Shown here one piece after another: positions 63 through 6,870 of a stretch of 6,870 nt of DNA. Below the pieces are notes generated by a model, which was not told the origin of the DNA, searched no databases, and was given only the letters and a program-made list of their open reading frames with translations. Every line of letters starts with the position of its first letter. The first letter of the stretch is position 1. The DNA lies in IMG/VR virus record IMGVR_UViG_2681813268_000003, positions 1 to 6,870 of that record, one strand, 5' to 3'. The DNA is from a virus. Lineage: Duplodnaviria; Heunggongvirae; Uroviricota; Caudoviricetes. Made by a program: the position numbers and the translations under genes.

Positions 63-565
63 TTGTTGACCACTTCAGTTACAAACGAGCGAGTAACAAA
101 AATACGCGAACTGAAACGAAAAGGTAACGCTGCCAGCGTTACACAAACGGATCAAAAAGCGTTACCAGAGGAAGAGGAAGAGGAAGAGGAAGAGGAAGAG
201 GAAGAGGAAGAGGAAGATCTAAATACTGATCTCCCCCTCGCCAAAAACGAGCGTCTAAAAAATTCGAGCCGGAGGCTATTGAGCTGCCCGATTGGTTGCC
301 GGAAACACTCTGGCATGAGTGGGTCCGGTTCAGACAGGCATTGCGAAAACCGATTCGAACGGAGCAGGGCGCTAACGGGGCGATACGGGAACTGGAAAAA
401 TTCCGTCAGCAGGGTTTTACACCTGAGCAGGTGATTCGACACAGCATCGCCAATGAATACCAGGGCCTGTTCGCGCCGAAAGGTGTTCGGCCTGAGACGT
501 TGCTCCGACAGGTTAACACCGTCTCGTTGCCGGACAGTGCGATCCCGCCAGGCTTCAGGGGGTAA
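63..565 (+). pseudogene. DnaT-like primosomal/replication protein, disrupted. The C-terminal domain (about 230..565, frame 2) is intact; the upstream part including the poly-Glu tract is in frame 3, and all three frames have stops before nt 127
   Basis: Frame-2 translation ends ...VNTVSLPDSAIPPGFRG, which matches my recollection of the E. coli DnaT C-terminus (...VNTVSEPDSQIPPGFRG). Gene sits immediately 5' of a DnaC-like gene (stop 563-565, next ATG 572), as in dnaT-dnaC. Frames 3 and 2 are joined by a 1-nt shift at the C5 run 233-237; adding one C gives a continuous ORF 63..565. Only TTG starts are available at 63/66. Confidence 0.5.
168..215 (+). repeat. (GAGGAA)x8 perfect hexanucleotide repeat encoding 16 consecutive Glu in frame 3
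   Basis: Direct reading of the sequence: 48 nt of uninterrupted GAG GAA codons. Confidence 0.95.
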
Positions 566-2316: not shown

Positions 2317-3003
2317 ATGACCCCAATAAACATATTTATGACAGTTGCTGATTTCAAACGGCCCAAATTGGAGCTCCCAAACGGGGCAAACAAACTACTA
2401 CTGCACTCTTGCTGTGCTCCATGTTCCGGTGAGGTGATGGAGGCGCTTCAGGCCTCGGGAATCGACTACACCATCTTTTTCTACAACCCGAACATTCATC
2501 CTCAGAAAGAGTATTTAATTCGTAAGGATGAGAATATTCGCTTTGCTGAACAACACGGCGTGCCGTTTATTGATGCTGATTACGACACAGACAACTGGTT
2601 TGAACGAGCCAAAGGAATGGAATGGGAGCCCGAACGAGGGATCCGTTGCACCATGTGTTTTGACATGCGTTTTGAGCGGACAGCGCTGTACGCCGCTGAA
2701 AATGGTTTCAGTGTGATCAGCAGTTCACTGGGCATTTCACGCTGGAAAAATATGCAGCAGGTTAACGACTGTGGGCGGCGAGCCGTCGCGCATTATCCGG
2801 GCATGGTGTACTGGGATTATAACTGGCGCAAGCAGGGCGGCTCGTCCCGTATGATTGAAATCAGCAAGCGCGAAAAATTCTATCAGCAGGAATATTGTGG
2901 CTGTGTGTATTCTCTGCGCGATACCAATCTACACCGCAAATCTCAGGGACGCCCTCTTATCAAAATTGGTCAACTCCACTACGGTAAAGAAGAGAAGGAG
3001 TGA
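2317..3003 (+). CDS. queH: QueH-like protein (DUF208 family, putative B12-independent epoxyqueuosine reductase)
   Basis: 228-aa ORF with N-proximal [11 protein letters not shown] motif and additional conserved Cys (CTMCFD, EYCGCVY), which I recognise as DUF208/QueH hallmarks. No obvious SD; alternative start ATG 2338. Confidence 0.7.
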
Positions 3004-3024
3004 TTTTATGGGGCACCTTTCTGA

Positions 3025-3054
3025 TTGATTTCATATTGGCGAGGTAAGTAGAAT
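3025..3054 (+). promoter_or_regulatory. Putative sigma70 promoter of hok/mok mRNA copy 1 (TTGATT -18- TAGAAT)
   Basis: -35-like TTGATT 3025-3030 and -10-like TAGAAT 3049-3054; predicted start near 3060, just before the tac-like element. Confidence 0.4.
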
Positions 3055-3057
3055 GAC

Positions 3058-3072
3058 TGCGGGTGCTTGAGG
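3058..3072 (+). promoter_or_regulatory. tac-like 5' element of hok mRNA copy 1 (TGCGGGTGCTTGAGG), complementary to the fbi-like 3' element at 3443..3458
   Basis: 15 bp pair with 3443-3458 (CCTCAACGCACCCGCA) with one bulged C. Same 5'/3' fold-back architecture as described for plasmid R1 hok mRNA. Copy 2 equivalents at 6400-6414 and 6779-6794. Confidence 0.55.
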
Positions 3073-3104
3073 CTATCTGCTTCAGGCATGAACACCAAAA
3101 GGCA

Positions 3105-3182
3105 GATAGAGAAAAGCCCCAGTTAACATTACGCGTCCGGCAAGACGCTTAACATTAATCTGAGGCCAATTTCATGCTTTGC
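3105..3182 (-). ncRNA. Putative Sok-like antisense RNA of hok locus 1 (extent approximate)
   Basis: Inferred by analogy to hok/sok. Minus strand has -35-like TTGCCT (complement of 3212-3217) and weak -10-like TAACCT (complement of 3189-3194) with 17-nt spacing, pointing transcription antisense across the mok start (3174). 3' end not defined. Confidence 0.25.
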
Positions 3183-3386
3183 ACATGTAGGTTAGCCTCT
3201 TACATGCCGAAAGGCAAGGAGAAGCAGGCTATGAAGCAGCAAAAGGCGATGTTAATCGCCCTGATCGTCATCTGTTTAACCGTCATAGTGACGGCACTGG
3301 TAACGAGGAAAGACCTCTGTGAGGTACGAATCCGAACCGGCCAGACGGAGGTCGCTGTCTTCGTAGACTACGAATCCAGGAAGTAA
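3174..3386 (+). CDS. mok: Mok-like regulatory ORF, in frame with and containing hok (70 aa)
   Basis: ATG 3174, same frame as hok. Same in-frame arrangement as I recall for E. coli MokC/HokC. Confidence 0.5.
   Translation: MLCTCRLASYMPKGKEKQAMKQQKAMLIALIVICLTVIVTALVTRKDLCEVRIRTGQTEVAVFVDYESRK
3231..3386 (+). CDS. hok: Hok/Gef-family type I toxin (51 aa, single TM helix)
   Basis: MKQQKAMLIALIVICLTVIVTALVTRKDLCEVRIRTGQTEVAVFVDYESRK is near-identical to recalled HokD/HokC sequences. SD AAGGAG 3215-3220 before ATG 3231. Confidence 0.9.
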   Translation: MKQQKAMLIALIVICLTVIVTALVTRKDLCEVRIRTGQTEVAVFVDYESRK

Positions 3387-3463
3387 GAGTGACCGGGCGG
3401 GGAGCTGATCCCATCCCCGCCCACCTCTGATGTGTCAGGCATCCTCAACGCACCCGCACTTAA

Positions 3464-3506
3464 CCCGCCCATCGCTGTGATCTCTCAGCGTTTCGGCGGG
3501 TTTTTT
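3464..3506 (+). terminator. Rho-independent terminator / 3' end of hok mRNA copy 1
   Basis: Two-tier hairpin: CCCGCC 3464-3469 pairs GGCGGG 3495-3500; inner CGCTG 3473-3477 pairs CAGCG 3486-3490; followed by T6 3501-3506. Confidence 0.7.
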
Positions 3507-3526
3507 GTTGTTTATTTCCGGTGAAT

Positions 3527-3554
3527 TTGATTCGCGCACCTTCGCAGATAGAAT
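3527..3554 (+). promoter_or_regulatory. Putative sigma70 promoter (TTGATT -16- TAGAAT) upstream of the 95-aa ORF
   Basis: TTGATT 3527-3532 and TAGAAT 3549-3554, located just after the hok1 terminator. Confidence 0.4.
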
Positions 3555-3635
3555 CGACTCACTTAAGTAGCGCGCAGGGAGAAGAGGGATGGACCCCGAA
3601 CAGGGGAGAGCTATTTATCTGGAAGGATTCTGAAG

Positions 3636-4178: not shown

Positions 4179-4184
4179 NNNNNN
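4179..4184. other. Run of 6 N: assembly/scaffold gap of unknown true length
   Basis: Literal nnnnnn in the sequence; flanks correspond to positions 1940 and 1942 of the upstream repeat copy. Confidence 0.95.
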
Positions 4185-4412
4185 CGGGTTGACGAAAAAG
4201 AGCGTCAGGTCCGCTGTAAAATCTGCGGTGCGGTTGTGGAGCCGTTTGACTGGATGCTCTCTGTGGCAAAAAGAGAAACCAGACTGGCAGATGATGTAAG
4301 GCTATTGCGCCAGGAGGAACAGGAAAGGCGGAGAAATATAGAAAAGCTGATACAGATTGAGCGTAACGCGAAAGCGCGGATACGCAGGGCGACAAAATCC
4401 AGAACTGAATAA
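4185..4412 (+). CDS. 5'-truncated second copy of the zinc-ribbon/coiled-coil protein (3' 228 nt identical to 1942..2169)
   Basis: Frame-3 translation from the gap edge (RVDEKERQVRCKICGAVVEPFDWML...ATKSRTE) is identical to the C-terminus of the 1813..2169 product. Confidence 0.5.
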   Translation, partial: RVDEKERQVRCKICGAVVEPFDWMLSVAKRETRLADDVRLLRQEEQERRRNIEKLIQIERNAKARIRRATKSRTE

Positions 4413-4498
4413 TTAAATTTAGCACTGTTAAAAATTTAATCCTTAACCGGAGGGATTTCTGCACCCTCAAATCATCAGGAGACCGCCCGAAAGGGCGG
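4185..4498 (+). repeat. Copy B of the 314-bp direct repeat (partner 1942..2255)
   Basis: See copy A. Ends in a GAAA-loop hairpin (4482-4499) that is perfect here but mismatched in copy A. Confidence 0.95.
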
Positions 4499-6117: not shown

Positions 6118-6197
6118 CCTGGCCTGAGGCATTCACCACGGTAGGAATTGCGATGGCGGTGGCGCTGGTGGTGTATTCGATTTGCCGTTGGGGTTAA
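6114..6197 (+). CDS. Putative 27-aa hydrophobic micropeptide (MTWPEAFTTVGIAMAVALVVYSICRWG)
   Basis: Below the ORF-track length cutoff. ATG 6114 overlaps DUF551 stop (ATGA), strong SD AGGAGG 6101-6106 at 7-nt spacing, stops 7 nt before a strong terminator. Confidence 0.4.
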   Translation: MTWPEAFTTVGIAMAVALVVYSICRWG

Positions 6198-6207
6198 CAA
6201 ACAAAAA

Positions 6208-6233
6208 CCCCGGATTGATGGTCCGGGGTTTTT
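6208..6233 (+). terminator. Rho-independent terminator closing the HNH-containing operon
   Basis: CCCCGGA 6208-6214 pairs TCCGGGG 6222-6228, 7-nt loop, then T5 6229-6233. Confidence 0.75.
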
Positions 6234-6445
6234 GAAGGAAACAAAACAGAAACAGCAATTGCCGTTACCTGTTGTTACCATGGCAAGTAAACGTATCTCA
6301 GGCGAGCGCATTGCGCCGTTCTGACGCAGATAAACTAGCCTGGATAGATGGTGCTGGCAATAAAAAATAGCGTTTTCTTATCGGTGTCGGTAAGATTGCT
6401 GCGGGTGCTTGAGGCTGTCTGCCTCGGGTATGTCACTGTAAGGCA

Positions 6446-6523
6446 GACAGAGAAAAGCCCCAGTTAACATTACGCGTCCTGCAAGACGCTTAACATTAAT
6501 CTGAGGCCCAATCTATGTCTCAC
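6446..6523 (-). ncRNA. Putative Sok-like antisense RNA of hok locus 2 (extent approximate)
   Basis: By analogy only; the same minus-strand hexamers as locus 1 are conserved (complement of AGGCAA and AGGTTA). Confidence 0.2.
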
Positions 6524-6727
6524 AAATGTAGGTTAGCCTCTTACGTGCCGAAAGGCAAGGAGAAGCAGGCTATGAAGCAGCAAAAGGCGATGTTAATCGC
6601 CCTGATCGTCATCTGTTTAACCGTCATTGTGACGGCACTGGTAACGAGGAAAGACCTCTGCGAGGTACGAATCCGAATCGGCCAGACGGAGGTCGCTGTT
6701 TTCGTAGACTACGAATCTAGAGAGTAA
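6515..6727 (+). CDS. mok: Mok-like regulatory ORF, in frame with and containing hok copy 2 (70 aa)
   Basis: ATG 6515, same architecture as locus 1. N-terminus differs (MSHKCRLASYV vs MLCTCRLASYM). Confidence 0.5.
   Translation: MSHKCRLASYVPKGKEKQAMKQQKAMLIALIVICLTVIVTALVTRKDLCEVRIRIGQTEVAVFVDYESRE
6572..6727 (+). CDS. hok: Hok/Gef-family type I toxin, second paralog (51 aa)
   Basis: MKQQKAMLIALIVICLTVIVTALVTRKDLCEVRIRIGQTEVAVFVDYESRE. Differs from copy 1 at T35I and the C-terminal residue. SD AAGGAG before ATG 6572. Confidence 0.9.
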   Translation: MKQQKAMLIALIVICLTVIVTALVTRKDLCEVRIRIGQTEVAVFVDYESRE

Positions 6728-6799
6728 GAGTGACCAGGCGGGAGAGTAATCTCCCGCCACCTTTGATGTGTCAGGCATCCTCAACGCACCCGCACTTAA

Positions 6800-6819
6800 C
6801 CCGTTTCGGCGGTTTTTTT
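6800..6819 (+). terminator. Degenerate terminator of hok copy 2 (T7 tract with minimal stem)
   Basis: Relative to copy 1, about 25 nt of the hairpin are missing; CCG/CGG with a 3-nt loop remains, followed by T7 6813-6819. Confidence 0.3.
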
Positions 6820-6870
6820 GGTAATGACTCCAACTTATTGATAGTGTTTTATGTTCAGATAATGCCCGAT

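What the first reader, a model, noticed from the sequence alone, without database searches (positions are those of the whole stretch)
3105..3231. Candidate Sok-like antisense RNA promoters on the minus strand of both hok leaders
Complement of 3212-3217 (TTGCCT) and of 3189-3194 (TAACCT) form a weak promoter with 17-nt spacing, directing transcription antisense through the mok start. The same hexamers are conserved at locus 2. Position matches where an antitoxin RNA is expected, but the -10 is weak and the 3' end is not defined.
Basis: inference. Interest (0 to 1): 0.4.

Follow-up and report, generated by a model that had tools for sequence, protein, structure and literature searches.

The report
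Sok antitoxin RNA promoters, hok/sok loci
The two weak-looking minus-strand promoters are the ordinary promoters of the Sok antisense antitoxin RNA in two prophage hok/sok toxin-antitoxin loci, and the same -10 hexamer has already been mutated and shown to matter in the near-identical hokW-sokW locus of Shiga-toxin phages.

Summary
The reverse complement of 3212-3217 is TTGCCT and that of 3189-3194 is TAACCT, with a 17-nt spacer. The same hexamers sit at 6553-6558 and 6530-6535.

The hexamers alone are no better than chance. The window holds 25 equally good sites, and the sigma-70 scanner reports neither promoter.

Homology carries the argument. Both loci are complete hok/sok type I toxin-antitoxin modules, about 92% identical to hokW-sokW of phage 933W/Sp5. 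The GenBank record of 933W annotates a 71-nt minus-strand SokW RNA that starts 8 nt inside mokW. That position maps to window 3182 and 6523.

Takada et al. 2021 mutated exactly this -10 (TAACCTA to GAGCCGG). The mutation unleashed HokW toxicity, and sokW supplied in trans partly rescued the cells.

The -35/-10 pair lies at the homologous position in R1-type hok/sok, hokB and hokE. It is kept in 65 of 78 unique homologous leaders.

The 3' end can be defined. A long hairpin (3115-3167) plus a U-tract gives predicted 71-nt RNAs at 3182->3112 and 6523->6453.

One side observation: the Sok 5' tail is hypervariable among otherwise near-identical loci, and the two tails in this window look orthogonal.

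The parts
3212..3217 (-). Sok (locus 1) -35 hexamer TTGCCT; overlaps the CAAGGAG Shine-Dalgarno region of hok on the + strand
   Evidence: Homologous to TTGCGC (R1-type), TTGCCG (hokB), TTGCCT (hokE) and TTGACC (hokC). Nearly invariant in 49 hokW-like leaders.
3189..3194 (-). Sok (locus 1) -10 hexamer TAACCT (mok codons 6-7 on the + strand)
   Evidence: Identical to the sokW -10 mutated in Takada 2021. -12T, -11A and -7T are invariant in 49 leaders.
3112..3182 (-). Predicted 71-nt Sok-like antitoxin RNA of locus 1 (5' G at 3182, 3' end in the U-tract at 3112)
   Evidence: Gap-free alignment to the annotated 71-nt sokW of 933W. Fold -30.2 kcal/mol, z = -4.9. Sequence printed.
3168..3182 (-). 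Single-stranded 5' tail of Sok 1, complementary to the mok start codon and codons 2-3; predicted target-recognition and specificity segment
   Evidence: Fold. Hypervariable among homologs. Cognate versus cross duplex energies.
3115..3167 (-). Sok 1 stem-loop, followed by UUUU(CUCU); predicted intrinsic terminator, covering the mok GAGG Shine-Dalgarno (3162-3165) on the + strand
   Evidence: Mean entropy 0.08 across 49 leaders.
3174..3386 (+). mok 1 (70 codons, in frame with hok and 19 codons longer)
   Evidence: Same layout as mokC/hokC and mokW/hokW.
3231..3386 (+). hok 1 toxin ORF (51 aa, Hok/Gef)
   Evidence: Pfam PF01848, E = 9.8e-23. PGAP names it 'HokD' in the identical RefSeq genome.
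3061..3506 (+). Predicted hok 1 mRNA (leader matched by Rfam RF01794 at 3061-3236; 5' end pairs with the 3' end, tac/fbi-like)
   Evidence: MFE fold pairs the 5' GGGUGCUUGAGG with the 3' CCUCAACGCACCC, z = -8.4. Promoter-like TTGATT-18-TAGAAT at 3025-3054.
6553..6558 (-). Sok (locus 2) -35 hexamer TTGCCT
6530..6535 (-). Sok (locus 2) -10 hexamer TAACCT
6453..6523 (-). Predicted 71-nt Sok-like antitoxin RNA of locus 2; differs from Sok 1 at 8 of the first 15 nt and at one loop base
   Evidence: (fold -35.7 kcal/mol, z = -6.4)
6515..6727 (+). mok 2 / hok 2 (hok 6572-6727)
6403..6819 (+). Predicted hok 2 mRNA (Rfam RF01794 at 6403-6577), abutted by an IS1 end at 6820

Best explanation
Each site is the sigma-70 promoter of a cis-encoded Sok-type antisense antitoxin RNA, inside a complete hok/sok type I toxin-antitoxin locus of a lambdoid prophage. 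These loci are alleles of hokW-sokW. Transcription starts at the G opposite C3182 (locus 1) or C6523 (locus 2), 8 nt inside mok, and runs leftward. It ends at a long hairpin plus U-tract, giving an RNA of about 71 nt. The single-stranded 5' tail of about 15 nt pairs with the mok translation-initiation region of the processed hok mRNA. The duplex then extends over the mok Shine-Dalgarno. This blocks mok translation and therefore the coupled hok translation, and it exposes the duplex to RNase III. When Sok supply stops, as shown for sokW on prophage induction, the stable hok mRNA is translated and Hok damages the inner membrane. Shown here: the sequence elements, their homology and conservation, and the predicted RNA structures. 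Shown in the literature for the homolog: promoter dependence, antitoxin activity, and partial dependence on RNase III and Hfq. Inferred: that the same events occur at these two loci in this strain.
For: (1) The hexamers, spacing and start position are verified. (2) Locus 1 is about 92% identical to the 933W hokW locus, which annotates mokW, hokW and a 71-nt minus-strand sokW whose 5' end is at mokW+8, equal to window 3182. K-12 sokC also starts at mokC+8. (3) From -10 to -35, locus 2 is identical to hokW and locus 1 differs at one spacer base. (4) PMC8621323: the 'pro-less' primers change minus-strand TAACCTA to GAGCCGG. That mutant is toxic on hokW induction and is partly rescued by pACYC184-sokW. 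sokW RNA is seen by northern blot and disappears after mitomycin C. (5) The same architecture occurs at the homologous position: R1-type hok TTGCGC-17-TATCCT, hokB TTGCCG-17-TAAGAT, hokE TTGCCT-17-TACCAT. 65 of 78 unique leaders from GTDB genomes and IMG/VR keep TTGnnn-17/18-TAnnnT there. Among 49 hokW-like leaders, -12T, -11A, -7T, the TTG of the -35 and the +1 base are invariant. (6) The predicted RNAs have a 5' tail plus a stable hairpin plus a U-tract, z = -4.9 and -6.4, like SokW, SokC and SokB. (7) Both loci have every other hok/sok part: a Hok/Gef ORF, an in-frame mok, an Rfam RF01794 leader at 117-118 bits, and predicted 5'-3' end pairing of the mRNA.
Against: By consensus the promoter is weak (7 of 12 matches, no TGn extended -10, no A/T-rich UP region). 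The scanner does not report it, and equally good sites occur about 25 times in the window. By contrast, the R1 Sok promoter is described as strong (PMC1635323). Conservation of the hexamers is confounded: they overlap mok codons and the hok Shine-Dalgarno, and the neighbouring spacer bases GCCTCTTAC are just as invariant. So conservation alone cannot be credited to promoter function. I found no text saying the sokW start site was mapped experimentally; the figure legend only marks it. No expression data exist for this strain. The hokC group has CACTCT at the -10 position, so the motif is not universal in the family.
Confidence: 0.9

Rival explanations
1. The hexamers are fortuitous. They are conserved only because they overlap mok codons, the hok Shine-Dalgarno and structured parts of the hok mRNA, and no functional antisense promoter exists at these two loci.
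For: The consensus match is weak and the scanner is silent. The window has 25 comparable sites. Adjacent non-promoter bases are equally invariant.
Against: Mutating this exact -10 in the homolog, which is identical over the promoter, abolishes antitoxin function, and sokW in trans restores it. sokW RNA is detected by northern blot. The synonymous changes that would break -12T (TTA to TTG) or -7T (AGG to CGG) are never seen in 49 unique leaders, whereas the non-critical -9 position varies G/A.
Confidence: 0.04
2. Sok is made, but one or both loci are decayed relics like the IS-inactivated K-12 hok loci. The Sok RNA would then be an orphan antitoxin, for example neutralising an incoming homologous hok, rather than half of a working killer module.
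For: An IS1 end abuts the locus-2 terminator at 6820, and locus 2 lacks 23 nt of the locus-1 3' region. K-12 hokA, hokC and hokE are flanked or interrupted by IS elements. PMC2887945 notes that some chromosomal hok-sok loci have degenerated.
Against: Both loci keep intact hok and mok ORFs, Shine-Dalgarno sequences, the Rfam leader and the predicted 5'-3' end pairing. The IS1 lies after the U-tract, not inside the mRNA. Locus 1 has no IS nearby.
Confidence: 0.12
3. An antisense RNA exists but is driven by a different minus-strand promoter or starts elsewhere, for example further inside hok, giving a longer antisense transcript.
For: I found no direct 5'-end mapping for sokW, and the -10 is weak.
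Against: No better minus-strand promoter is found within 2950-3560 or 6290-6870. The start position matches the annotations of sokW and sokC and the R1 Sok 5' end implied by the T7 template primer in PMC1635323. The -10 mutation is sufficient to lose antitoxin activity.
Confidence: 0.03

Closest known systems
sokW of hokW-sokW (phage 933W, AF125520; Sakai prophage Sp5; Takada et al. 2021, PMC8621323)
   Same: About 92% nucleotide identity over the locus. The -35 TTGCCT, the -10 TAACCT, the 17-nt spacing and the +1 position are identical. The RNA has the same 71-nt length, with the same hairpin carrying the 18-nt extension absent from hokC/hokB. The setting is a lambdoid prophage.
   Different: The 5' tails differ, so predicted specificity differs. 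Cross-duplexes of the sokW tail with the window targets are -9.9 and -11.4 kcal/mol, against -24.1 for its own target. The Hok C-termini differ slightly. The genomic neighbours differ: locus 1 follows queH in a Rac-like prophage and locus 2 follows a DUF551 gene.
Sok of plasmid R1 parB (hok/sok)
   Same: The promoter lies at the homologous place inside mok (TTGCGC-17-TATCCT in an R1-type IncFII plasmid). The RNA has a 5' single-stranded tail plus a stem-loop. It acts on mok translation, with RNase III cleaving the duplex (PMC1635323 and PMC9841398).
   Different: R1 Sok is 64 nt with an 11-nt tail, its -10 matches 4 of 6, and its promoter is reported as strong. HokW is only 44% identical to R1 Hok. 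R1 is a plasmid post-segregational killing system, not a prophage locus.
SokC, SokB and SokE of E. coli K-12
   Same: They are cis-antisense RNAs of 57-60 nt that start just inside or just upstream of mok, with the same tail-plus-hairpin fold. The same Rfam leader model matches.
   Different: Their hairpins are shorter, lacking the 18-nt insert. The hokC -10 position reads CACTCT. The K-12 loci are associated with IS elements.
K-12 hokD (relF), the name PGAP gives the window's toxin
   Same: The toxin protein is about 90% identical (L014).
   Different: K-12 hokD sits directly downstream of relE. It has no homologous leader, no CAAGGAG/-35 and no sok. The window loci are complete hok/sok modules.

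Membership tests
hok/sok type I toxin-antitoxin family | Small hydrophobic Hok/Gef toxin ORF of about 50 aa | tested here: met
   PF01848 at E = 9.8e-23 and 1.7e-21 for the two loci
hok/sok type I toxin-antitoxin family | An overlapping mok reading frame that starts upstream of hok and whose initiation region is the Sok target | tested here: met
   70-codon ORFs at 3174-3386 and 6515-6727, in frame with hok and 19 codons longer, as for mokC/hokC and mokW/hokW
hok/sok type I toxin-antitoxin family | Conserved structured hok mRNA leader (Rfam RF01794) | tested here: met
   117.0 and 118.1 bits against a gathering score of 59. The model matches the hok-sense strand, not the Sok strand.
hok/sok type I toxin-antitoxin family | Cis-antisense sok gene with its promoter inside mok and its start a few nt inside mok | tested here: met
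   TTGCCT-17-TAACCT with +1 at mok+8, homologous to sokW, sokC, sokB, sokE and R1. This is sequence evidence only.
hok/sok type I toxin-antitoxin family | Sok RNA architecture: single-stranded 5' tail plus a stable stem-loop or terminator | tested here: met
   Predicted folds, z = -4.9 and -6.4
hok/sok type I toxin-antitoxin family | Long-range 5'-3' pairing (tac/fbi) that keeps the full-length hok mRNA closed | tested here: met
   MFE folds pair the first ~12-20 nt with the 3' CCUCAACGCACCC, z = -8.4 and -6.5. This is a prediction only.
hok/sok type I toxin-antitoxin family | The antisense RNA is actually transcribed and neutralises Hok | not testable with these tools
   Shown for the homolog sokW (PMC8621323), not for these loci
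hokW-sokW subfamily (prophage alleles) | High nucleotide identity across leader, hok and 3' UTR; extended Sok hairpin; lambdoid prophage context | tested here: met
   92% identity. Shared 18-nt hairpin extension. Prophage genes on both sides.
K-12-type hokD/relF locus (PGAP label) | Truncated locus without mok, sok or leader, downstream of relBE | tested here: not met
   The window loci have a full leader and sok. The sequence upstream of K-12 hokD is non-homologous.

The most novel reading that the evidence does not exclude
The roughly 15-nt Sok 5' tail, which is mok codons 2-3 plus the bases just upstream of the mok AUG, is a hypervariable specificity cassette. It is embedded in an otherwise almost invariant promoter-hairpin scaffold. 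There are 19 distinct versions among 49 unique hokW-like leaders, and the two copies in this window differ at 8 of 15 tail positions against 1 of the remaining 56. This may reflect diversifying selection for mutually orthogonal antitoxins, so that co-resident or competing prophages cannot neutralise each other's Hok. That would be an RNA-level immunity-group system for prophage hok/sok modules.
Probability: 0.35. Interest if true: 0.45.

Novelty: already known. Interest (0 to 1): 0.1.

Why it matters
It matters little as a discovery. Sok promoters inside mok have been textbook knowledge since the early 1990s. sokW has been annotated in phage 933W's GenBank record, and its -10 was tested by mutagenesis in 2021.

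There are two practical points. First, RefSeq/PGAP annotates only the toxin at both loci (as 'HokD' or 'Hok/Gef family') and no antitoxin RNA. Second, the Rfam 'sok' model matches the hok-sense strand, so automated annotation can miss or mis-strand the antitoxin.

The hypervariable Sok tail is a modest lead on how many hok/sok copies coexist in one genome without cross-talk. Here the median E. coli genome with a match has 2 places and the highest has 9.

Tried and rejected
(1) Consensus promoter and terminator scans found neither the Sok promoter nor its terminator. The promoter is below the 9-of-12 threshold, and the hairpin is long and bulged, so the scanner's failure is uninformative.

(2) I considered using the Rfam 'sok' hit as evidence for the antisense gene and rejected it. 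The model matches the + (hok) strand here and the strand opposite to the annotated sokC, sokB and sokW. It identifies the leader only.

(3) I looked for a YUNR U-turn motif in the Sok target just after the mok AUG. Only 10 of 19 tail variants had one in my simple test, which is inconclusive, so I dropped it.

(4) Supplementary files for the R1 delta-pSok mutations (PMC9841398) and for Takada 2021 are not held. The sokW mutation was reconstructed from the primer table in the main text instead.

(5) I checked for an extended -10 (TGn) or an A/T-rich UP element that might compensate for the weak -10. Neither is present in the sequence (output).

(6) I did not obtain Pedersen & Gerdes 1999, which aligned the chromosomal sok promoters. 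It did not turn up in the searches I ran.

Full report
**Observation.** The window was read in full and the hexamers were checked by script.
- 3212-3217 is AGGCAA, reverse complement TTGCCT.
- 3189-3194 is AGGTTA, reverse complement TAACCT.
- 3195-3211 is a 17-nt spacer.
- Locus 2 has the same hexamers at 6553-6558 and 6530-6535.
- A start at 3182 or 6523 is 7 nt downstream of the -10. It lies 8 nt inside the 70-codon mok ORFs at 3174-3386 and 6515-6727.

So the description is accurate.

**Chance.** The match is not remarkable as a pattern. It scores 4 of 6 plus 3 of 6 consensus positions. The sigma-70 scan reports nothing on the minus strand at either locus. The 6.9-kb window contains 25 sites at least as good with a 17-nt spacer, and 61 with 16-18 nt. 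Any claim of function must therefore rest on other evidence.

**What the loci are.** The two regions, about 3048-3467 and 6390-6803, are 90-93% identical paralogs.
- Each encodes a 51-aa Hok/Gef toxin (PF01848, E about 1e-22).
- Each has an in-frame 19-codon upstream extension, mok.
- Each has a leader that matches Rfam RF01794 at 117-118 bits against a gathering score of 59.
- The predicted full-length mRNAs (3061-3506 and 6403-6820) fold with the 5' GGGUGCUUGAGG paired to a 3' CCUCAACGCACCC, like the tac/fbi closure of R1 hok mRNA. The z-scores are -8.4 and -6.5.
- Locus 1 is 100% identical to E. coli FDAARGOS_943/944 chromosomes. It lies in a Rac-like lambdoid prophage between queH and DUF1367/DUF1364/DUF1133 genes.
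- Locus 2 matches another prophage region of FDAARGOS_944, downstream of a DUF551 gene.
- Related sequence occurs in 4713 of 5426 complete E. coli genomes, with a median of 2 places and up to 9.

**Homology to an annotated and tested antitoxin.** Among phage records, locus 1 is about 92% identical to the hokW region of Stx phages.
- The 933W record (AF125520) annotates mokW, hokW and a 71-nt minus-strand 'SokW antisense RNA' whose 5' end is 8 nt inside mokW.
- The alignment between 933W and the window has no gaps over this stretch. SokW therefore maps to 3182->3112 and 6523->6453.
- K-12 sokC likewise starts 8 nt inside mokC.
- From the -10 through the -35, locus 2 is identical to hokW. Locus 1 differs by one spacer base, A3204.

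**Experimental support from the homolog.** Takada et al. 2021 (PMC8621323) built pBAD18-hokW-sokW and a 'pro-less' derivative using primers YO-421 and YO-422.
- Mapped onto 933W, these primers change the minus strand from TAACCTA to GAGCCGG.
- The mutant showed growth retardation on hokW induction. It was partly rescued by sokW supplied from pACYC184.
- sokW RNA was detected by northern blot with a probe whose 3' end is the predicted +1 base.
- sokW RNA disappeared after mitomycin C treatment, HokW then accumulated, and antitoxin activity depended partly on RNase III and Hfq.

**Conservation across the family.** The same arrangement is found at the homologous position in:
- an R1-type IncFII hok/sok locus (TTGCGC-17-TATCCT);
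- K-12 hokB (TTGCCG-17-TAAGAT);
- K-12 hokE (TTGCCT-17-TACCAT).

I collected 127 related loci from GTDB genomes and IMG/VR, which gave 78 unique leaders. Of these, 65 retain TTGnnn-17/18-TAnnnT there. The exceptions are the hokC group (CACTCT), two CAATCT variants, and truncated or decayed loci, including K-12-type hokD.

Within the 49 unique hokW-like leaders, -12T, -11A, -7T, the TTG of the -35 and the +1 base are invariant. The -9 position, a synonymous third codon position of mok, varies G/A.

One caveat applies. The neighbouring spacer bases GCCTCTTAC are equally invariant, and the -35 overlaps the hok Shine-Dalgarno. Conservation alone cannot separate promoter constraint from coding or RNA-structure constraint.

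**The 3' end and the RNA.** On the minus strand, the start is followed by these elements:
- about 15 nt predicted to be largely single-stranded (3168-3182);
- a long, slightly bulged hairpin (3115-3167);
- UUUUCUCU.

The folds give -30.2 kcal/mol (z = -4.9) for locus 1 and -35.7 kcal/mol (z = -6.4) for locus 2. This is the same tail-plus-hairpin design as annotated SokW, SokC and SokB, folded in the same call. The hairpin covers the mok GAGG Shine-Dalgarno and the tail covers the mok AUG. That is the geometry by which R1 Sok blocks mok, and hence hok, translation (PMC1635323 and PMC9841398).

**Mechanism, with status of each step.**
- Shown here: promoter elements, start position by homology, RNA architecture, complementarity to the mok initiation region, and completeness of the hok mRNA regulatory architecture.
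- Shown for the homolog: promoter dependence, antitoxin activity, and loss of the RNA followed by HokW production on prophage induction.
- Inferred: that both window loci express their Sok and that Hok is held in check in this strain.

**A wrinkle in Rfam.** RF01794, named 'sok antitoxin', matches the + strand here. In K-12 and 933W it matches the strand opposite to the annotated sokC, sokB and sokW. The 157-nt model ends at the hok AUG, so it describes the hok leader. It cannot be used to assign the antitoxin's strand or ends. PGAP annotates no sok RNA at either locus. It names the locus-1 toxin HokD, although K-12 hokD is a truncated locus without leader or sok.

**Side observation.** In the 49 hokW-like leaders, mean column entropy by segment is:

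| Segment | Mean entropy |
|---|---|
| Sok hairpin | 0.08 |
| -35 hexamer | 0.05 |
| -10 hexamer | 0.15 |
| Sok 5' tail | 0.84 |

- There are 19 distinct versions of the segment between the mok Shine-Dalgarno and the -10.
- The two Sok RNAs of this window differ at 9 positions: 8 in the first 15 nt and one in the loop.
- Predicted tail-target duplexes are -19.7 and -22.4 kcal/mol for cognate pairs, against -3.3 and -4.0 kcal/mol for crossed pairs.
- This suggests orthogonal antitoxins. That fits the report that chromosomal Sok RNAs do not silence R1 hok (PMC9841398). It was not tested further.

**Verdict.** The feature is a known element of a known system (hok/sok, hokW-sokW alleles). Interest is low.

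Noticed in passing
window 3061-3236 and 6403-6577; L003 502-654; L004 567-718; L001 1521-1695: Rfam RF01794 ('sok antitoxin') matches the hok-mRNA sense strand, opposite to the annotated sokC, sokB and sokW genes. The 157-nt model runs from the hok mRNA 5' end to the hok AUG. It marks the leader, not the antitoxin RNA, and could cause mis-stranded annotations.
   Followed up: yes
window 3167-3188 and 6508-6529; alignment of L009-L135 leaders: The Sok 5' tail / mok codon 2-3 segment is hypervariable: 19 variants among 49 unique hokW-like leaders, while the flanking hairpin and promoter are nearly invariant. The two tails in this window differ at 8 of 15 nt, and predicted cross-pairing is weak (-3 to -4 kcal/mol against about -20).
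   Followed up: partly
window 4179-4184, 1942-2241 and 4185-4484: A run of 6 N is flanked by a 300-nt exact duplicate of 1942-2241. The sequence left of the gap maps to one prophage (FDAARGOS_943/944) and the sequence right of it to a different prophage region of FDAARGOS_944. The window looks like a scaffold join across a repeat shared by two prophages, so the two hok loci may not be 3.3 kb apart in the real genome.
   Followed up: partly
window 6820-6870: The last 51 nt are an IS1 terminus, an exact reverse-complement match to the end of the annotated IS1A in L002 at 8153-8203. It lies immediately after the U-tract of the locus-2 hok terminator. Locus 2 also lacks 23 nt present in the locus-1 3' region (3467-3489). 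This recalls the IS elements next to K-12 hokA, hokC and hokE.
   Followed up: partly
window 3231-3386; L008 2120-2350: PGAP names the locus-1 toxin 'HokD', but K-12 hokD (relF) has no mok, sok or leader and sits behind relBE. The window loci are complete hokW-type modules. No sok ncRNA is annotated at either locus in RefSeq.
   Followed up: yes
window 3071-3110 vs 6413-6451: The hairpin at the 5' end of the hok leader shows a compensatory double change between the two loci (A3075/T3107 against G/C), plus a G-U to G-C change (T3081 against C). This is consistent with selection on RNA structure.
   Followed up: no
window 2317-3003: An epoxyqueuosine reductase QueH gene (PGAP name in the identical genome) lies inside the prophage, directly upstream of hok locus 1.
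   Followed up: no
window 169-216: A perfect (GAGGAA)n tandem repeat of about 48 nt encodes a run of 16 glutamates, inside an ORF upstream of the ydaV/dnaC-like gene.
   Followed up: no
window 6196-6243: A GC-rich hairpin is flanked by an A-run and a T-run (AAAAACCCCGGACCATCAATCCGGGGTTTTT), which looks like a bidirectional intrinsic terminator after the short ORF ending at 6197. It produces several sub-threshold Rfam hits (STnc30, PsrR1 and others) that are probably terminator-only matches.
   Followed up: no
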